Shown piece after piece: positions 20,319 through 25,425 of a stretch of 64,000 nt of DNA. The position numbers and the translations under genes were made by a program. The stretch is from Ruthenibacterium lactatiformans. Lineage in GTDB: Bacteria; Bacillota; Clostridia; Oscillospirales; Ruminococcaceae. The stretch spans positions 70,831 through 134,830 of the forward strand of contig NZ_JXXK01000003.1 of the NCBI RefSeq assembly GCF_000949455.1. The letters run 5' to 3'. The notes beneath the pieces were generated by a model, which ran no database searches, was not told where the DNA came from, and saw only the letters and a program-made list of their open reading frames with translations. How positions within the stretch are numbered: position 1 is the first letter of the stretch; each line of letters starts with the position of its first letter.

Positions 20319-21853
20319 AGCAGGACAAGCGCCCCGCGGGCGCGGCCGTAAAAAAGCGGCGTTTTTTCAACAGGATCAGCCGCAAGCTGATGCTGTTTGT
20401 TGTGCTGATGAGCATGGTGCTGCTGGCGCTGGTGTGGCTGCTGAGCGTAAAGCTGCTGGAGCCCATGTACAACCGGCGCGTGCTCGCGGATCTGAACCAT
20501 GCGGCGGACGTCTATTCCGCCATCATTGAAAAATACGGCAAATTCGAGAGCTTCGACAAGAGCGGCGGCGTTCATATTCCCTCAGACATGATGGAGGAGA
20601 TCATGGACAACCGGGGGCTGCTGGCCGGAAAATGCTTTGAGGTAGCCGGAACAGACTGCAAGGTCCTGCTGCATCTTCACCAGCTGCAGTCCGACCAGTG
20701 CCTGCTGCATCCCAATCCGCTGAGCCAGCTTATGGAATATTCAGAGCCGCAGTGGAACAGCACCGCAGCCGTCAACCTGCGGGCCACGACCTTCGTACTG
20801 GGAGACCTGAACTTTACTCTGCCGGACTCCCGCATCCTGCCCGGCCTGGAAAGCACCTCCGGCACCCGGCAGATGGTGGTGTGCCGCAACATCAACAACC
20901 AGTATTCTCTCATCCTCTCCACAGACCTGGAGCGTGTGGGCCAGGCCGCCGACGTCATCAGTGCGCAAATGCCCATCATTGCCGCCGTGCTGCTCATCGT
21001 CAGTATTGCGGGTGCTTATGTATTCAGCCGCTGGTTCACAAAACCCATCTCGGCCATTTCCCGCGCCGCGCGGGAGATGGCACGCGGCAATTACAAGGTG
21101 CGCGTCACGCCCCAGGCGGATGACGAGCTGGGCGCGTTGGCCGGGGATTTCAACACCATGGCCCGGGAGGTGGGCCGCACCTCGGAGCTGCAGCGGGACC
21201 TCATCGCCAATGTCAGCCACGACCTGCGCACGCCGCTGACGCTCATCAAGGGCTATGCCGAGACGGTACGCGACCTGACGGGCGACAACAAGGAAAAGCG
21301 GGACGAACAGCTCTCGGTCATCGTGGACGAGACCGACCGCCTCTCCGGCCTTGTGAACAGCGTGATGGAGCTTTCCAAATATTCCTCCGGCACCGAAAAG
21401 CTCAATCCCGTCCAGTTCGACCTGGCACAGCTGTGCGACGAAGTGGCCTACCGCTACCAGAATATCTGTGAGCAGAGCGGCTACACCCTCACGGTAGATG
21501 CTGCCGGCCCCTGTACCGTAACGGCAGACCCGGACATGATGAGCCGTGTGGTGCACAATCTGCTGGCGAACGCCATCCATCATATCGGGCCGGACGGCTG
21601 TGTGGCGCTGCGCGTAAAATCGCAGCCGGACGCCGCCGTGCGGGTAGAGATTGAGGACCACGGCGCGGGCATTGCCCGGGAAGATCTTCCCTATATCTTT
21701 GACAAATACTACCGCTCCCGCGCGGACGCCGGCAAGGTCGGCACAGGGCTGGGGCTTTCCATCACAAAGGCCATCCTCATCAACCACGGCTTTCCCTTCG
21801 GTGTGGACAGCGAACCCGGCAAGGGCAGCATTTTCTGGTTCGTCGCTCATTGA
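20315..21853 (+). CDS. sensor histidine kinase (2 TM, HAMP, HisKA, HATPase_c)
   Basis: H-box LIANVSHDLRTPLT, N/G1/G2 boxes (HNLLANAIHH, IEDHGAGI, GTGLGLSI); 512 aa. Confidence 0.8.
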   Translation: MKQDKRPAGAAVKKRRFFNRISRKLMLFVVLMSMVLLALVWLLSVKLLEPMYNRRVLADLNHAADVYSAIIEKYGKFESFDKSGGVHIPSDMMEEIMDNRGLLAGKCFEVAGTDCKVLLHLHQLQSDQCLLHPNPLSQLMEYSEPQWNSTAAVNLRATTFVLGDLNFTLPDSRILPGLESTSGTRQMVVCRNINNQYSLILSTDLERVGQAADVISAQMPIIAAVLLIVSIAGAYVFSRWFTKPISAISRAAREMARGNYKVRVTPQADDELGALAGDFNTMAREVGRTSELQRDLIANVSHDLRTPLTLIKGYAETVRDLTGDNKEKRDEQLSVIVDETDRLSGLVNSVMELSKYSSGTEKLNPVQFDLAQLCDEVAYRYQNICEQSGYTLTVDAAGPCTVTADPDMMSRVVHNLLANAIHHIGPDGCVALRVKSQPDAAVRVEIEDHGAGIAREDLPYIFDKYYRSRADAGKVGTGLGLSITKAILINHGFPFGVDSEPGKGSIFWFVAH

Positions 21854-21873
21854 GCCGGATATTTTTCTCTGTA

Positions 21874-21914
21874 AAAAAGGGACCTCCCGCACCTGCGGGA
21901 GGTCCCTTTTATTT
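21874..21914. terminator. bidirectional rho-independent terminator
   Basis: AAAAAGGGACCTCCCGCA-cctgc-GGGAGGTCCCTTTTATTT. Confidence 0.7.
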
Positions 21915-22035
21915 GTAGAAAAACCACCGGCTATGCCGGTGGTACGGAAAAGCTTAAGCTATGAAAAGAAACTCCTTCCAGTAAAATGGCAGTGCGGTCT
22001 GGCAACTGCACGAACCAACAGAAGGAGGCCATTCA

Positions 22036-22068
22036 GTGAATGACAATAATAGTTTAGCGCATACAAAA
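22036..22068 (+). pseudogene. tnpA: 5' stub of IS200-family tnpA (GTG start, codons 1-11: VNDNNSLAHTK)
   Basis: RBS GAAGGAGG 7 nt upstream of GTG; NSLAHTK is the conserved N-terminal motif of IS200/IS1541 transposases and is continued by WNCKYHIV at 23654. Confidence 0.5.
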
Positions 22069-22124
22069 GTACAGTTTACAAGGGTCTACACAGGGTAGGT
22101 ATCTGACGGGAGGGGTTCCGCCCG

Positions 22125-22268
22125 TCAGATTTTCCATGTGATGTTCAAACTGTCGCTTGTGGCGGCTATGATGGTAATCATCAAGTCCATCACCCGCCGC
22201 TTGTCGTCAAAGGATACATTCTCCCAGGTGTCGAGGTAGCCGTAAATCTGGCTGACCTGTTCCAGCAG
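22125..22268 (-). pseudogene. 47-codon C-terminal remnant resembling the end of a large serine recombinase
   Basis: LLEQVSQIYGYLDTWENVSFDDKRRVMDLMITIIAATSDSLNITWKI*, with an in-frame stop immediately upstream; followed by a 10-bp perfect hairpin ATCTGACGGG/CCCGTCAGAT. Confidence 0.3.
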
Positions 22269-22343
22269 TTAGCGAAGAAGATGATTAAGCAGGTGGGAAA
22301 GTAATCATAAAGAGTAAAGAGAAAAAAGGAAATAAAATTCACG

Positions 22344-22372
22344 TTGTCCGCAAAAAGAGAGTGTGATATAAT
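22344..22372 (+). promoter_or_regulatory. strong sigma-A-type promoter for the methyltransferase gene (-35 TTGTCC, 17 bp, extended -10 TGtGaTATAAT)
   Basis: TTGTCCgcaaaaagagagtgtgaTATAAT ~38 nt upstream of RBS AAAGGAG. Confidence 0.6.
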
Positions 22373-22410
22373 GTGGTTAGCTAAAGATAACTATGAAAGG
22401 AGCATTGTGT

Positions 22411-23034
22411 ATGTCTTTTTTTCAAAATACTTGTAAGCCCAAAGGGATTGGCGGCAAAATTATGGTTAATATGATGAATACCGGACATTCATCTATGGCT
22501 GAATGGGGATTTACGCATATAGAAATTAGAAATAATTACATATGTCTGGATATTGGGTGTGGCGGTGGAGCAAATGTAAAAAAGCTATTGGCAAAAACTC
22601 CATACGGCAAAGTGACAGGTATTGATTATTCAGAAATTAGTGTAATAAAATCCCAAAAAATCAATAAGGCAGAAATAGAAAATAGGCGTTGCGAAATCTT
22701 GCAAGGTAATGTAATGAAACTTCCTTTCGGAAATGAAACTTTTGATATAATTACTGCGTTTGAAACAATATATTTTTGGCCTGATATTAATGAGGCATTT
22801 AAGCAAGTATATCGAGTTTTGAAAGGCAGCGGAACTTTTATGATTTGCAACGAATCAAATGGCGAAAATTCCAAAGAAGAAAAGTGGACTAAGATTATAC
22901 AAGGAATGAAAATATACAATTCTGGACAAGTCAAAAAATCTTTAGAGGGTGCTGGTTTTACAGACATAAAAATACACAAAAATGAAAAAGGCTGGCTCTG
23001 CGTAGTTTGTAAAAAAGATAAAGATGTAAATTAA
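22411..23034 (+). CDS. class I SAM-dependent methyltransferase (Methyltransf_11/25-like), low GC
   Basis: motif I LDIGCGGGANVKKLL, motif post-I VTGIDYSE, motif II FDIITAFETIYFWPD; start ATG 22411 (MSFFQ...) with RBS AAAGGAG; substrate not inferable. Confidence 0.7.
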   Translation: MSFFQNTCKPKGIGGKIMVNMMNTGHSSMAEWGFTHIEIRNNYICLDIGCGGGANVKKLLAKTPYGKVTGIDYSEISVIKSQKINKAEIENRRCEILQGNVMKLPFGNETFDIITAFETIYFWPDINEAFKQVYRVLKGSGTFMICNESNGENSKEEKWTKIIQGMKIYNSGQVKKSLEGAGFTDIKIHKNEKGWLCVVCKKDKDVN

Positions 23035-23650
23035 CTATTGTTTTCTCAATAGCAAAGACAGCCGGGAAAGCCCTAAAATGGCTTCCCGCCCATTTCAATT
23101 TTGAAAAAAGAAACGCTCCAAAATCAGAAAGAGGGCGGCCAAGTACTTCGGAGGATTGGCCGCCTTGTCCACCCATTCAGCGGGACGGTGGGCGGCGGTC
23201 AAGGCCGGGTGTAAACTCGTTCATTTCAGCCCTGACGCTTGCCCGCTGTCCTGCTACTTTTCTGGGAATGTGGCCACACTTCGGGACACTTTGTCCACAA
23301 GTCGGAGCGTAGGTCGAGGGACAGGGGCTTTCATATACGCCCTGTCTGCTGATGAAACCAGACCTGCGCTTGCGGCTCCACGCCACGCAAGCACAGCCCT
23401 GTTTTCCTGCCGCTTCAAATGCCCTTGCCCTCCCCGGCGGCAACGGCATTTTCACGGCAACGCCGACAGAGCGTATAACACACTACACTTTGCTACGCAA
23501 AGTCGTGTGCCAAAGGGGTACCCTTTGGAAACCCCAAACAACAAAACAGGCTGAATATCTCGCACTTTCCCGGTGCTTGATACTCAGCCTGTATTTGTTG
23601 TCAGCAGCCTCCGTTTCGTGGTCTGCGTGTAGTTCTTTGTAAACTGACCT

Positions 23651-24079
23651 AAATGGAATTGCAAATACCACATTGTGTTTGCGCCGAAATATCGGCGCAA
23701 ACTGTTCTACGGAGAAAATCGAAAAGAGATAGGAGGGATTTTGAGACAGCTCAGTGAATGGAAAGGAGTAAAAATAGTAGAAGCAGAAGTGTGCCCGGAT
23801 CACATCCACATGCTGGTAGAAATCCCACCGAAAATGAGTGTGGCGGGATACATAGGATTTCTCAAGGGGAAAAGCAGTTTGATGATTTTTCAACGACACG
23901 GGAATCTGAAGTACAAATATGGGAATCGATCATTCTGGTGCAGAGGGTACTACGTGGACACCGCAGGAAAGAATACGAAAAAGATCGCGGAATACATTCA
24001 AAATCAGTTGAAAGAAGATCAACTTACAGATCAGATGACGTTAAAGGAATACATGGACCCGCTTGCGGGTAACAAGTAA
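23651..24079 (+). pseudogene. tnpA: IS200-family transposase TnpA body (codons 12-152), lacking its own start because of the upstream insertion
   Basis: KWNCKYHIVFAPKYRRKLFYG...PDHIHMLVEIPPKMSVAGYIGFLKGKSSLMIF...RGYYVDTAGKN: HuH motif and catalytic Tyr of Y1 transposases; an in-frame TGA lies 2 codons upstream of K. Confidence 0.6.
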
Positions 24080-24154
24080 CAATCCTATGCAAGTGTCAGA
24101 CCGTTATGCGCCTTGAGGCGCTGCCTGTATCATAGGGCTTTGCCCGCATCTGAA

Positions 24155-24188
24155 ATACCCCCGGCTTCGCCGGGGGATATTTATTTCC
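24155..24188. terminator. bidirectional rho-independent terminator / IS right-end hairpin
   Basis: CCCCCGGC-ttc-GCCGGGGG followed by ATATTTATTTCC; T-run also present on the opposite strand. Confidence 0.6.
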
Positions 24189-24189
24189 A

Positions 24190-25425
24190 TTAAAATGCCC
24201 ATTCTCCGTTTTCAAAGATCTTCACGTTCTCTCCCGTTCTGGTGGTACCCGTAATGGTCATATCCGGCGCGCCCACCATCACGTCCTCGTGGATGATGCT
24301 GTCGTTCACACCGTGGGCCAACAGTTCCTGCTTCGTCATGGCCGTACCGCCCTTTACAGTGCCGGGGTAACCCTTACCGAAGGCGATGTGGCAGGCCGCG
24401 TTCTCGTCGAACAGCGTATTGTAGAACAAAATGCCCCGCCGGTTGATGGGGCTGGACGCCGGCACCAGCGCGATCTCGCCGATGCGGCGGGAGCCTTCAT
24501 CGGTGTCCAGCAGCTGGCCCAGCAGCGCCTCGCCGCTTTGGGCCGAATGCTCCACCACTTCGCCGTCCTTGAAGGTGACGGAAAAGCCCTCAATGAGGTT
24601 GCCGTTGTACACATAGGGCTTGGTGCCCTTTACAACGCCGTTTACGCGCAGACGGTGCGGCGCGGTGAACACTTCCTCGGTGGGGATATTTGCGATGAAT
24701 GTGTAGCCCTCGGGCGTACGGCTTTGAGCGCCCTCCCACACATGCCCGTCCGCAAGGCCGATGGTGAGGTCTGTGCCGTTGGCGCTCTGCAGCCGGATGC
24801 TGTCCAGATCCAGCGCATTCATGCGGTCGCGCCAGGCGGTCATTTTTTTCACATGCGCCTGCCACTCGGACACCACATTGCCGTTTTTCACGCGGCACAC
24901 GTCGAAGATAGCGTCCCAAAGCATTTCCTGAGCCTCATCCTCCGCCGCGCCGGGAAATACCTTTCCCGCCCACGCGGCGCTTGGGATCGCCACGATGCTC
25001 CACTGCACCTTGTCGCTCATGGTATAGCTGCGCCACTCCTCCTGCGCCTTCATAGCCGCCTGGTTTGCGCGGTCGATCTTTTCCATATCAAGCCCCTTGT
25101 AGATCTCCGGGTCCCGCGCGGAAATGGACAGCATGCACGCGCCTCCCTCACTCTCCACATAATCGAGATAGCTGCGCTGGAGCCAGGGCTTCACATCCTC
25201 CAATACCTCCACGGCGGTATTCTCCATTTTAATGCGGGACAGCTTTTCGTCCGAATAGTGCACCACCACTTCCTTCGCGCCCGCAGCGTAGGCCGCCTCG
25301 GCACAGGCCCGGGCGAAAAACGCCCCCTCGATGGGCGCACGGATGATGAGCGTCTGCCCCGGCTGGGGGTTGACGCCGATCTTTACGGCAAATTCCGCAT
25401 ACTGCTTCACCAAATTTATATCCAT
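24190..25425 (-). CDS. M29-family aminopeptidase (AmpS/PepS-like)
   Basis: MDINLVKQYAEFAVKIGVNPQPGQTLIIRAP... and conserved metal-binding His/Glu/Asp; start chosen at 25425 (RBS GGAGA 8 nt upstream); the ORF track 5' extension was rejected. Confidence 0.75.
   Translation of the reverse strand: MDINLVKQYAEFAVKIGVNPQPGQTLIIRAPIEGAFFARACAEAAYAAGAKEVVVHYSDEKLSRIKMENTAVEVLEDVKPWLQRSYLDYVESEGGACMLSISARDPEIYKGLDMEKIDRANQAAMKAQEEWRSYTMSDKVQWSIVAIPSAAWAGKVFPGAAEDEAQEMLWDAIFDVCRVKNGNVVSEWQAHVKKMTAWRDRMNALDLDSIRLQSANGTDLTIGLADGHVWEGAQSRTPEGYTFIANIPTEEVFTAPHRLRVNGVVKGTKPYVYNGNLIEGFSVTFKDGEVVEHSAQSGEALLGQLLDTDEGSRRIGEIALVPASSPINRRGILFYNTLFDENAACHIAFGKGYPGTVKGGTAMTKQELLAHGVNDSIIHEDVMVGAPDMTITGTTRTGENVKIFENGEWAF

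What the first reader, a model, noticed from the sequence alone, without database searches (positions are those of the whole stretch)
21925..24188. IS200-family tnpA split by a 1.58-kb inverted-repeat-bounded cassette carrying a promoter-driven SAM methyltransferase
The conserved IS200 TnpA N-terminus (V/M)NDNNSLAHTK is encoded at 22036-22068 with a good RBS. Its continuation WNCKYHIVFAPKYRRK...HIHMLVEIPP...RGYYVDTAG resumes at 23654, 1.58 kb downstream. The intervening segment starts GTACAGTTTACAAG and ends CTTTGTAAACTGACC (13-bp imperfect terminal inverted repeats), flanked by AAA on both sides as a possible target duplication. Inside are a 47-codon C-terminal remnant of a serine-recombinase-like gene, a low-GC class I SAM methyltransferase with a consensus extended -10 promoter, and ~500 bp of GC-richer non-coding DNA. 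That non-coding DNA ends in a long imperfect hairpin (AACAACAAAACAGGCTGA...TCAGCCTGTATTTGTTGT). A nested mobile element that has inactivated an IS and delivers a strongly expressed methyltransferase may be a resistance, modification or small-molecule methylation gene on the move.
Basis: seen in the sequence. Interest (0 to 1): 0.6.

Follow-up and report, generated by a model that had tools for sequence, protein, structure and literature searches.

The report
Decayed mobilizable transposon inside an IS200
An IS200 insertion sequence has had its transposase gene split by a 1.6-kb stripped-down remnant of a very common gut-bacterial mobilizable transposon, one that moves with a serine recombinase. 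The remnant keeps only its two recombination ends, a transfer origin and one methyltransferase gene of unknown function, so it is a tidy but essentially ordinary case of nested mobile DNA.

Summary
An IS200 (about 21912-24185) has its tnpA split after codon 11 by 1585 bp (22068-23652). A 99.3% identical intact IS200 in the same species reads straight through the junction.

The insert is not a transposon with inverted repeats and a target duplication. It is an internally deleted, non-autonomous derivative of a 6.3-7.6 kb integrative mobilizable element (IME). That element family was found in more than 120 species and more than 120 metagenome contigs. Full-length copies encode a large serine recombinase (LSR), a MobV relaxase, a RepA_N protein, a Cys-rich VLP protein, an HTH regulator and variable cargo. 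They also carry a conserved non-coding right end of about 590 bp.

The window keeps both att arms, the last 45-47 LSR codons, a cargo class I SAM methyltransferase with a strong promoter, and the right-end module. That module contains a pMV158-type oriT.

Every junction examined reads N|AA|AGTACAG...CTGACCT|AA|N. This is a 2-bp AA crossover, not an AAA duplication.

The target motif is TTT-N10-AA-N10-AAA. The conserved SLAHTK/WNCKYH coding sequence of IS200 fits it, ranking 1st-2nd of 6833 AA sites in the window. It was hit independently in at least 14 IS200 lineages.

The same deleted derivative sits at two other loci, so it has probably moved in trans. The methyltransferase function is unknown, and nothing supports a resistance role.

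The parts
21912..22035 (+). IS200 left end and 5' leader. It includes the left subterminal hairpin ACCACCGGCTATGCCGGTGGT (21923-21943) and an STnc490-like structured 5' UTR.
   Evidence: Similarity to the intact copy L129 begins at 21912. Rfam STnc490 matches 21922-22028 at 46.4 bits, E=2.5e-7, below the gathering score of 56. The hairpin was found.
22036..22067 (+). tnpA 5' stub (V-N-D-N-N-S-L-A-H-T and the first two bases of the K codon). The last 24 bases form the attB left arm, and the AA crossover copy is at 22066-22067.
   Evidence: The sequence is contiguous with 23653 onward in the intact copy. TTT at 22053-22055 lies at -13..-11 from the crossover, as in the attB logo.
22068..22124 (+). 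Left att arm of the inserted element (P' arm, AGTACAGTTTACAAGGGTCTACACAGGGTAGG), followed by the hairpin TCTGACGGG...CCCGTCAGA that lies just after the recombinase stop codon.
   Evidence: The first 40 bases after the junction are identical or nearly identical in 120 genome loci at different sites. A more divergent copy, L004, aligns here.
22125..22268 (-). 3' remnant (47 codons plus stop) of the element's large serine recombinase gene.
   Evidence: tblastn of the full-length LSR from L101 matches residues 474-518 to 22262-22128 at 93% identity, E=7.5e-21. No other part of the LSR is present in the window. Full-length 503-534 aa ORFs end at the same distance from the left end in about 40 loci.
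22269..22410 (+). Deletion scar and cargo leader. 22251-22311 matches DNA upstream of the first cargo gene of a related IME. It also holds the promoter (TTGTCC at 22344-22349, then TG plus TATAAT at 22367-22372) and the RBS GAAAGGAG.
   Evidence: 87% match to L007 8255-8316. Promoter scan gives 10 of 12 consensus positions with TG.
22411..23034 (+). Cargo gene: a 207-aa class I SAM-dependent methyltransferase of unknown substrate, 33% GC.
   Evidence: Pfam Methyltransf_11/25/31. NCBIfam matches are all below their cut-offs. PDB matches are generic small-molecule methyltransferases. The identical protein appears in 3359 index blocks and has 4164 homologues.
23060..23652 (+). Conserved non-coding right-end module of the element family, ending with the right att arm (about 23620-23650) and the AA crossover copy (23651-23652).
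   Evidence: It matches the right ends of full-length elements L012, L018, L073, L082 and L101 at 77-94%. The last 360 bp are more than 90% conserved across 50 distinct copies. The same end abuts unrelated DNA in L253 and in Campylobacter tet(O).
23473..23510 (-). Candidate MOBV1-type origin of transfer. The predicted nick GTGTG/TT lies between 23479 and 23478 on the minus strand.
   Evidence: The minus strand reads GCACACGACTTTGCGTAGCAAAGTGTAGTGTGTTATAC. The pMV158 oriT is GCACACACTTTATGAATATAAAGTATAGTGTG/TTATAC (PMC5863519). Local alignment score is 50, against a maximum of 39 in 2000 random windows. The site occurs once per full-length element, in the same position and strand. Stems are conserved and loops vary.
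23538..23601 (.). Long imperfect hairpin between the oriT and the right att arm. Its function is unknown.
   Evidence: MFE is -34.9 kcal/mol. A second family variant (L101, L082) has a different inner sequence but still folds as a long hairpin on the same conserved outer stem ACAACAAA/TTTGTTGT.
23653..24079 (+). tnpA body (third base of the K codon, then WNCKYHIVFAPKYRRK...HIHMLVEIPP...YYVDTAG...). It is cut off from its start codon.
   Evidence: Pfam Y1_Tnp E=5.3e-33. The reconstituted ORF is 152 aa. It aligns to the intact copy.
24080..24185 (+). IS200 right end with the subterminal hairpin CCCCCGGCTTCGCCGGGGG (24158-24176).
   Evidence: Similarity to the intact copy L129 stops at 24185. The hairpin was found.

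Best explanation
The 1585-bp insert (22068-23652) is a non-autonomous deletion derivative of a low-specificity, serine-recombinase-driven integrative mobilizable element (a 'mobilizable transposon' in the Tn4451 sense). This element family is very common in gut Clostridia.

**Shown.**
- Full-length relatives (6.3-7.6 kb) encode, from the left end: an outward-facing large serine recombinase, a MobV relaxase, a RepA_N protein, a Cys-rich VLP protein, an HTH regulator and variable cargo. A conserved non-coding right end follows.
- Their junctions always read target|AA|AGTACAG...CTGACCT|AA|target.
- The window copy retains both arms, 45-47 C-terminal recombinase codons, one cargo gene and the right-end module.

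**Inferred.**
- A full-length or already deleted element excised as a circle.
- Its recombinase then recombined the attP (…CTGACCT-AA-AGTACAG…) with a chromosomal AA flanked by TTT at -13..-11 and AAA at +11..+13.
- The conserved IS200 sequence AGTTTAGCNCATACN-AA-ATGGAANTGCAAATA, which encodes SLAHTK/WNCKYH, is a near-optimal match to that target. Insertion there splits tnpA after codon 11 and inactivates that IS200 copy.
- An internal deletion from within the recombinase gene to just upstream of the cargo removed all mobility genes. It left attL, attR and a pMV158-like oriT.
- Because the identical derivative lies at two further loci, the deletion probably preceded insertion. The mini-element would then have been moved by a recombinase supplied in trans, and it is potentially transferable with a relaxase supplied in trans.

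The cargo methyltransferase is transcribed from its own strong sigma-70-type promoter. Its substrate is unknown, and a small-molecule substrate is the more likely guess.
For: - **Contiguity.** An intact IS200 in the same species is contiguous across the junction.
- **Spread of the ends.** The left end was found in 120 or more species at different sites, and about 40 of those loci have an intact 503-534 aa ORF ending ...DDKRRVVDLMITTIAATSDSLNITWKI.
- **Protein domains.** That ORF has Resolvase + Recombinase + Zn_ribbon_recom. The neighbours are Mob_Pre/MobV, RepA_N, Cys_rich_VLP and HTH_3.
- **Complete elements.** Eight have both ends and range from 1252 to 7624 bp.
- **AA crossover.** AA is invariant at both junctions with a variable adjacent target base.
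- **Symmetric attB logo.** It was built from 103 left and 106 right non-IS200 flanks.
- **IS200 as target.** The site ranks 1st-2nd of 6833 AA sites in the repaired window. It was used in 15 of 118 genome loci, representing 14 IS200 lineages, and in 6 of 112 metagenome flanks.
- **Right-end module.** It is shared with full-length elements, and the oriT match is (reference sequence from PMC5863519).
- **Same derivative elsewhere.** It occurs with the same deletion junction in L253 (both ends intact, different flanks) and in L257.
- **Not an artefact.** The same locus is present at 99.8-99.9% identity in six independent assemblies.
Against: - No excision product, circular form or recombinase activity has been observed. 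The mechanism is inferred from family membership and junction anatomy.
- A 2-bp AA duplication made by some other enzyme would look the same at the sequence level.
- No intact recombinase of this family was found in the window or in the S. variabile records held in the plasmid collection. A resident helper is therefore not demonstrated, and the copy may now be immobile.
- Each att arm differs from the family consensus at one base.
- The oriT assignment rests on similarity to one characterised oriT.
- Trans-mobilisation rests on three loci, one of which has lost its right end.
Confidence: 0.88

Rival explanations
1. A DDE-type transposon or MITE bounded by 13-bp terminal inverted repeats that made a 3-bp AAA target-site duplication.
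For: Imperfect inverted repeats lie at the ends, and AAA is present on both sides in the window.
Against: Across 118 left junctions and 8 complete elements only AA is invariant on each side. The third A belongs to the element on the left and to the target on the right, and the adjacent target base varies. Examples are L018 TCC|AA|AGTACAG…CCT|AA|ATGG and L101 CGT|AA|…|AA|CTGG. Full-length relatives encode a large serine recombinase and no DDE transposase. The target shows a symmetric 28-bp motif typical of a dimeric site-specific recombinase.
Confidence: 0.03
2. An intron-like or programmed interruption of tnpA that is removed to restore the gene, such as a group I or II intron, an IStron or an excisable switch. 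Under this model its presence at the same codon in many IS200s would reflect shared ancestry or homing.
For: The same codon position is interrupted in at least 14 different IS200 lineages and in the IS200 relic of L004. Precise excision by the recombinase would restore tnpA exactly.
Against: No intron or ribozyme family matches in Rfam, even at permissive thresholds. About 87-95% of insertions of the same element are in unrelated DNA. The element ends are at least 95% identical, while the host IS200s share only about 30-45% ungapped identity in their upstream 122 nt. That points to recent independent insertions rather than co-descent. The site is predicted by a target matrix built without any IS200 sites.
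Confidence: 0.03
3. The functional unit is the whole 2.27-kb composite. Under this model IS200 has captured cargo and is transposed in trans by TnpA from the intact, 99%-identical copies, so the methyltransferase now rides on IS200 ends.
For: Both IS200 ends and their hairpins are intact, and an intact copy exists in the same species. IS200/IS605 transposition needs only the ends in cis (established knowledge of the family).
Against: All contigs read that carry the composite have it at the one HisKA/Peptidase_M29 locus. The other two occurrences of the methyltransferase segment use the inner element's own ends, not IS200 ends.
Confidence: 0.05
4. An assembly artefact or chimera joining an IS200 to unrelated mobile DNA.
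For: Repeats such as IS200 and this element often break or mis-join short-read assemblies. Many matches lie at contig ends.
Against: The identical structure with the same flanks appears at 99.8-99.9% identity in six independent assemblies from ENA and NCBI, on contigs of 227 kb to 1.78 Mb. Both junctions have the canonical att anatomy.
Confidence: 0.01

Closest known systems
Tn4451/Tn4453 mobilizable transposons of Clostridium perfringens and C. difficile (TnpX large resolvase, TnpZ Mob/Pre relaxase)
   Same: A small (about 6-7 kb) integrative mobilizable element of Clostridia. It is moved by a single large serine recombinase acting on 2-bp identical sequences in its att sites. It shows low target specificity, encodes a MobV-family relaxase with an oriT, and carries an accessory or resistance gene as cargo (PMC5704250). 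'Tn4451/Tn4453-like' elements carrying ant(6)-Ia or cfr(C) have been reported as common in gut commensals (PMC9765467).
   Different: The recombinase here is 503-534 aa and the crossover is AA. From my own knowledge, not tested here, TnpX is about 700 aa and Tn4451 uses GA. The gene set also differs: RepA_N, Cys-rich VLP and a 268-aa HTH protein here, against tnpV/Y/W in Tn4451. The recombinase gene faces outward at the left end. The window copy has lost every mobility gene.
Multi-targeting ('transposable') large serine recombinases, including the TndX-like subfamily (Durrant et al., bioRxiv 10.1101/2021.11.05.467528)
   Same: One closely related recombinase cluster integrates into many unrelated targets. 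The targets share a conserved central dinucleotide and an AT-rich, roughly symmetric motif.
   Different: [quoted passage not shown] I did not place it on their tree.
Decayed att-flanked remnants of integrative elements: CIMEs, and ccr-less pseudo-SCC elements of staphylococci
   Same: It retains attL and attR but has lost the integrase and transfer genes. It depends on a related autonomous element for excision and integration (the CIME concept, PMC5704250).
   Different: CIMEs were defined for tyrosine-recombinase ICEs and move in cis by accretion. Here the recombinase is a low-specificity LSR, the remnant also keeps an oriT, and the same remnant is found at separate loci. That suggests trans action rather than accretion.
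IS200 (IS200/IS605 family, Y1 HUH transposase)
   Same: The host element is a typical 689-bp IS200 with a single tnpA, subterminal hairpins and a structured 5' leader. It is inserted just after a terminator hairpin.
   Different: This copy's tnpA is interrupted after codon 11 and starts with GTG instead of ATG.

Membership tests
IS200/IS605 family, IS200 group (host element) | Encodes a Y1 (HUH) transposase of the IS200 type | tested here: met
   Pfam PF01797 Y1_Tnp, E=5.3e-33, covering profile positions 10-121 of 121 for the body. Adding the stub gives a 152-aa ORF.
IS200/IS605 family, IS200 group (host element) | About 700 bp, no terminal inverted repeats, subterminal hairpins at both ends | tested here: met
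   689 bp after removing the insert. Hairpins lie at 21923-21943 and 24158-24176. The ends were defined by comparison with an intact copy.
IS200/IS605 family, IS200 group (host element) | Structured 5' leader (Rfam STnc490, the IS200 5' UTR RNA) | tested here: inconclusive
   46.4 bits, E=2.5e-7, full model length, but below the gathering score of 56.
Serine-recombinase integrative mobilizable element (Tn4451-like 'mobilizable transposon') | A large serine recombinase (Resolvase + Recombinase + zinc ribbon) is the element's integrase | tested here: met
   Met for full-length relatives (Pfam; about 40 intact ORFs). The window copy keeps only residues 474-518. Catalytic activity was not tested.
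Serine-recombinase integrative mobilizable element (Tn4451-like 'mobilizable transposon') | Identical 2-bp crossover sequence at both junctions, present once in the empty site | tested here: met
   AA is present at both junctions in the window and in 8 complete elements. It occurs once in the intact IS200 (ACA-AA-ATGG).
Serine-recombinase integrative mobilizable element (Tn4451-like 'mobilizable transposon') | Own relaxase (MobV/Mob_Pre) and a cognate oriT, but no mating-pore genes | tested here: met
   The relaxase is present in full-length relatives (NCBIfam MobV 170 bits against a cut-off of 100; Pfam Mob_Pre). An oriT-like site is present in all copies including the window. The relaxase gene is absent from the window copy. 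Nicking was not tested.
Serine-recombinase integrative mobilizable element (Tn4451-like 'mobilizable transposon') | Low integration specificity (many unrelated target sites) | tested here: met
   More than 100 different left flanks and more than 100 different right flanks.
Tn4451/Tn4453 family in the strict sense | TnpX-type recombinase, GA crossover and the tnpX-tnpV-cat-tnpY-tnpZ-tnpW gene set (features recalled from the literature, not re-derived here) | tested here: not met
   The crossover is AA. The recombinase is 503-534 aa. The accessory genes are RepA_N, Cys_rich_VLP and an HTH protein. No direct sequence comparison with TnpX could be made because no TnpX sequence was available in the tools.
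Non-autonomous att-flanked remnant (CIME-like or mini-element) | Both att sites retained while integrase and transfer genes are lost | tested here: met
   Both arms are within 1 mismatch of the family consensus. No recombinase, relaxase, RepA_N, VLP or HTH gene is present.
Non-autonomous att-flanked remnant (CIME-like or mini-element) | Moves with help from an autonomous relative | tested here: inconclusive
   The same deletion derivative is found at three loci (window, L253, L257) with different flanks. That fits trans-mobilisation. No experiment was done, and no helper was found in this genome's available records.
DDE transposon or MITE | Terminal inverted repeats plus a fixed-length target duplication made by a DDE transposase encoded by autonomous copies | tested here: not met
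   No DDE transposase is present in autonomous copies. Only a 2-bp invariant AA is shared by the junctions.
Antibiotic-resistance methyltransferases (Erm, Cfr, 16S rRNA methyltransferases such as NpmA/Rmt) | Match to a curated family model above its cut-off | tested here: not met
   None of the 33 NCBIfam matches reaches its cut-off. The best are arsenite methyltransferase (59.6 bits against 263) and UbiE/MenG. No rRNA methyltransferase model appears among the 25 listed. PDB relatives are generic or small-molecule methyltransferases.

The most novel reading that the evidence does not exclude
This abundant gut IME family uses the most conserved stretch of IS200 tnpA (the DNA encoding SLAHTK/WNCKYH) as a recurrent landing pad, accounting for 5-13% of observed insertions across at least 14 IS200 lineages. 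In that sense one mobile element habitually parks inside, and disables, another. The family also spawns miniature derivatives that keep only attL, attR, an oriT and one cargo gene. These would be moved in trans by the recombinase, and possibly the relaxase, of full-length relatives, making them a serine-recombinase analogue of MITEs that can carry a gene.
Probability: 0.5. Interest if true: 0.45.

Novelty: new member of a known kind. Interest (0 to 1): 0.3.

Why it matters
The result resolves what looked like an odd cassette into a well-understood class: a decayed serine-recombinase mobilizable element nested in an IS.

It has three modest points of value:
1. It defines the ends, the AA crossover and a symmetric TTT-N10-AA-N10-AAA target motif. 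These belong to an unnamed element family whose recombinase cluster alone has more than 21,000 member sequences in public metagenomes, and which has reached Campylobacter resistance plasmids.
2. It shows that IS200 tnpA is a favoured, harmless landing site for that family. This is relevant to annotating 'split' transposase genes in gut genomes.
3. It gives a concrete candidate for a trans-mobilised mini-element that retains an oriT.

The finding does not reveal a new resistance gene or a new mechanism.

Tried and rejected
- **Rfam.** A whole-window scan at gathering thresholds and a scan of 21800-24300 at E≤1 found no intron, ribozyme or riboswitch. The only relevant hit was the IS200 leader (STnc490). 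A scan of the aadE-flanking DNA in L001 gave only chance-level hits.
- **Hypothetical ORFs in the GC-rich non-coding region.** ORFs at 23156-23554, 23352-23642 and 23177-23455 have no Pfam match.
- **Structure of the methyltransferase.** The AlphaFold2 model built on 24 close homologues was poor (mean pLDDT 48), so I ran no fold search because its matches would have been meaningless. The available homologues were all at least 77% identical, too shallow an alignment.
- **Genomic context of methyltransferase homologues.** The 91% homologue follows an FtsX/ABC transporter. The 81% homologue sits near another LSR/Mob element and a P-type ATPase. Neither gave a functional clue.
- **Literature search for the end sequences.** It found only unrelated papers. 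I found no name for this element family, and public sources call the recombinase only 'recombinase family protein'.
- **tet(O)/tet(W) leader idea.** I first suspected the GC-rich segment was a tet(O)/tet(W) upstream leader because it abuts tet(O) in Campylobacter. Comparison with an intact tet(O) showed the junction lies inside the tet(O) coding sequence, so this is an insertion or rearrangement breakpoint.
- **Relation to a site-specific aadE IME.** I checked whether the element is the aadE IME that sits in an HTH gene (Pusillibacter L007, C. difficile, PMC12271512). That element shares cargo-region DNA but has a different recombinase and different ends.
- **Search for a resident helper.** No intact recombinase of the family was found in the window or in S. 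variabile plasmid-collection records.


Full report
**1. The observation**

- A GTG-initiated stub VNDNNSLAHTK lies at 22036-22068, behind the RBS GAAGGAGG.
- The continuation WNCKYHIVFAPKYRRK… starts at 23654. It matches Pfam Y1_Tnp at E=5.3e-33.
- The DNA between them begins GTACAGTTTACAAG and ends CTTTGTAAACTGACC.
- Upstream of the stub, Rfam finds the IS200 leader RNA STnc490 at 21922-22028. The score is 46.4 bits, E=2.5e-7, just under the gathering score.

Removing 22068-23652 gives a 689-bp element with a 152-aa tnpA. That reconstruction matches a copy in another record of the same species (Subdoligranulum variabile OY725847.1) in one ungapped piece at 99.3% identity. The alignment runs straight through GCGCATACAAAATGGAATTGC.

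The comparison sets the IS200 limits at about 21912 and 24185. It also shows that the interrupted copy has GTG where the intact one has ATG. The IS200 sits immediately after the terminator hairpin of a histidine-kinase gene.

**2. What the insert is**

*First clues from annotated plasmids.* BLAST of the 1.58-kb segment against annotated plasmids found the source record itself and partial matches elsewhere. The GC-rich non-coding part (23094-23546) follows aadE in plasmids of Lactobacillus, Pediococcus, Pusillibacter and Campylobacter. The last 50 bp, up to and including …CTGACCTAAA, abut an internal fragment of tet(O) in Campylobacter plasmids. The same right-hand end therefore joins unrelated DNA in different genomes, which marks it as a real element terminus.

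A plasmid of an Oscillospiraceae isolate (L004) has a diverged copy of both ends. Strikingly, it interrupts a decayed IS200 at the same codon.

- Oriented on the motif, all have …AA-AGTACAGTTTACAAGG… preceded by different DNA.
- In about 40 loci with enough sequence, a 503-534 aa ORF on the opposite strand ends 56 bp inside the end. Its C-terminus reads …DDKRRVVDLMITTIAATSDSLNITWKI.
- The window's 47-codon remnant is 93% identical to residues 474-518 of that protein, and nothing else of the protein is in the window.
[quoted passage not shown] Its best NCBIfam matches are XisF and the Ccr recombinases. It is a large serine recombinase (LSR).

*Complete elements.* Eight loci contain both ends. 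The complete elements are 6322-7624 bp, and deleted ones are 1252, 1772 and 2109 bp. The order of parts in complete copies is:

| Position | Part | Strand |
|---|---|---|
| 1 | LSR | − |
| 2 | MobV/Mob_Pre relaxase | − |
| 3 | RepA_N protein | − |
| 4 | Cys-rich VLP protein | − |
| 5 | Small ORF and a 268-aa HTH protein | + |
| 6 | Variable cargo (MFS transporter, GNAT acetyltransferase, others) | varies |
| 7 | About 590 bp of non-coding DNA, homologous to window 23060-23652 at 77-94% | – |

The window element is therefore such an element with everything deleted between LSR codon ~472 and the cargo leader. 22251-22311 matches DNA just upstream of the first cargo gene of a related IME. The methyltransferase is the only part with no counterpart in the full-length elements fetched.

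**3. Junctions and mechanism**

In 118 left junctions, the two bases before AGTACAG are always AA, and the base before them is variable. In the eight complete elements, CTGACCT is always followed by AA and then a variable base. Empty sites contain a single AA. The intact IS200 reads ACA-AA-ATGG, and the window reads ACA-AA-AGTACAG…CTGACCT-AA-ATGG. On the right it belongs to IS200.

With AA as the centre, the two arms (…TTGTAAACTGACCT and AGTACAGTTTACAA…) are in register as an imperfect palindrome of about 25 bp. This is the anatomy of an LSR attP. It also matches what is documented for Tn4451-type elements, namely recombination between identical 2-bp sequences and low specificity (PMC5704250). 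No DDE transposase is present. I therefore read the ends as attL and attR. The recombination itself is inferred, not observed.

**4. Target preference and IS200**

Logos built from flanks that are not IS200 show:

- TTT at -13..-11 (0.8-1.0 bit each) on the left;
- AAA at +11..+13 and A at +15 (0.6-1.2 bit) on the right.

This is a symmetric TTT-N10-AA-N10-AAA motif.

*IS200 fits the motif.* The IS200 sequence AGTTTAGCGCATACA-AA-ATGGAATTGCAAATA fits it exactly. A position weight matrix scored every AA in the repaired 64-kb window on both strands, 6833 sites in all.

- The IS200 site ranks first when the right-flank matrix had, unintentionally, not been purged of IS200 sites.
- It ranks second when all IS200 sites are excluded from the matrix.

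*How often it is used.* Fifteen of the 118 genome loci and 6 of the 112 metagenome flanks lie at this same codon of an IS200-family tnpA. The fifteen fall into 14 lineages at 90% identity. Their stubs differ (MDDQSLSHTK, MNDIRSLSHSK, MANSLAHTK, MKDINSLEHTK and others), while the element ends are nearly identical. These are therefore independent, recent insertions.

The simplest reading is that protein-level conservation of SLAHTK/WNCKYH keeps a near-optimal attB in every IS200. Insertions there also cost the host nothing. I see no need to invoke intron-like homing.

The tet(O) breakpoint in Campylobacter also scores high (11.5, above the 99.9th percentile). There, however, the element's two ends lie in different genes, so a later rearrangement is likely.

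**5. The right-end module**

The last 360 bp are more than 90% conserved across 50 distinct copies. In the two short hairpins at 23492-23508 and 23513-23529, the stems are conserved while the loops vary.

On the minus strand, 23473-23510 reads GCACACGACTTTGCGTAGCAAAGTGTAGTGTGTTATAC. The oriT of pMV158, the prototype MOBV1 system, is GCACACACTTTATGAATATAAAGTATAGTGTG/TTATAC, with the nick after GTGTG (PMC5863519). The local alignment scores 50, against a maximum of 39 for 2000 random 70-nt windows. The core AAAGTGTAGTGTGTTATAC occurs once per full-length element, always on the relaxase-gene strand about 170 bp from the right end. I therefore assign this site as the family's oriT. This is an inference from similarity, and nicking was not tested.

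A second family variant has a different inner sequence that still pairs on the same outer stem. This suggests a structural role, which I cannot specify.

**6. Has the mini-element moved?**

The exact 207-aa methyltransferase is recorded in 3359 index blocks. Eight places were shown.

- Six are the same HisKA–IS200::insert–Peptidase_M29 locus at 99.8-99.9% identity, so this is not an assembly artefact.
- L253 is a 3.6-Mb contig of GCA_022835155.1. The insert lies inside a conjugative element and carries the same derivative with the same LSR-remnant/cargo junction and both ends. Its flanks differ: …AACATAAC|AA|AGTACAG … CTGGCCT|AA|TGAACAAG.
- L257 has the same left part at a third site, with its right end truncated.

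A shared deletion junction at different insertion sites means the deletion came first and the derivative then moved. That requires a recombinase supplied in trans. The inference rests on three loci.

No intact LSR of the family is present in the window or in the S. variabile records of the plasmid collection. The copy studied here may therefore be stranded.

**7. The cargo**

The methyltransferase (22411-23034) follows an RBS at 22395-22402. Its promoter is TTGTCC-17-TG-TATAAT. It is a generic class I SAM enzyme.

- Pfam matches Methyltransf_11, 25 and 31.
- All 33 NCBIfam matches are far below their cut-offs. The best are ArsM, UbiE/MenG and BioC, and no rRNA or resistance methyltransferase appears.
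- PDB relatives are uncharacterised or small-molecule methyltransferases such as YcgJ and MitM.
- It has 4164 homologues at E≤1e-10, none with an informative name among the 120 listed.
- Homologue contexts gave no clue to function.
- The structure prediction failed (pLDDT 48).

A small-molecule substrate is the best guess. A resistance role is unsupported.

**8. Comparison with known systems and verdict**

The element works like the Tn4451/Tn4453 mobilizable transposons and other LSR-encoding IMEs (PMC5704250, PMC12084326, PMC9765467). Its recombinase behaves like the 'multi-targeting' LSRs of Durrant et al. (bioRxiv 10.1101/2021.11.05.467528).

It is not Tn4451 itself. The crossover is AA, the recombinase is shorter, the accessory genes differ, and DUF4368 is absent. 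The window copy is a decayed, att-flanked remnant comparable to CIMEs or ccr-less pseudo-SCC elements.

The finding is real and now explained. It is a new member of a known kind. The IS200 landing-pad preference and the oriT-bearing mini-derivative are the only mildly new aspects.

Noticed in passing
L004 5960-8760 (Oscillospiraceae bacterium MB08-C2-2 plasmid CP141730.1): A diverged relative of the same element (ends about 75-80% identical) interrupts a decayed IS200 at the same codon. Its recombinase remnant has an in-frame stop, and its cargo is a 469-aa collagen-like Gly-X-Y repeat protein.
   Followed up: partly
L267 8800-14698 and L001/L008 (Campylobacter jejuni plasmids pGMI16-002 and pAR-0413-1): A full-length copy of this Clostridia-type element (LSR 91% identical at DNA level, MobV, RepA_N, VLP, HTH, GNAT) sits in conjugative Campylobacter resistance plasmids. 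Its right end is fused to an internal fragment of tet(O), and its left end lies in a different gene. This implies cross-phylum spread followed by rearrangement.
   Followed up: partly
window 23060-23099; L001 4930-5045; L002 4044-4083; L253 8656-8736: A roughly 40-bp segment containing the hairpin CGGGAAAGCC…GGCTTCCCG recurs at cargo boundaries. It lies downstream of the methyltransferase here and immediately upstream of aadE elsewhere, where it is preceded by a further conserved segment of about 80 bp with its own hairpin. It looks like a shared seam where cargo genes are exchanged, or a leader or terminator. No Rfam family matched.
   Followed up: partly
L254 6416-7501 and 9762-11365 (ENA ERZ1761040 contig_1135): In one metagenome version of the same chromosomal locus, two further insertion sequences have landed directly against both outer ends of the IS200. 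One has rve/HTH_38 domains and the other DDE_Tnp_1. The spot seems to accumulate IS elements.
   Followed up: no
L007 3140-10640 (Pusillibacter faecalis pMM59_01): A different, site-specific LSR IME splits an XRE/HTH regulator gene. Its recombinase ends …EVEIFYRFIGKID. It shares the cargo-region DNA (leader, aadE spacer, 450-bp downstream segment) with the family studied here, showing exchange of cargo modules between IME families with different integrases. This appears to be the aadE IME type described in C. difficile (PMC12271512).
   Followed up: partly
window 22036 versus L129: The interrupted IS200 copy starts with GTG where the intact 99.3% copy has ATG. This is one of only six substitutions between the two copies.
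   Followed up: no
cluster P0124: The 90%-identity cluster of this recombinase has 21,769 member sequences, and another related cluster has 2,807. This makes it one of the more abundant integrases in public gut metagenomes, yet the only names sources give are generic ones such as 'recombinase family protein'.
   Followed up: no
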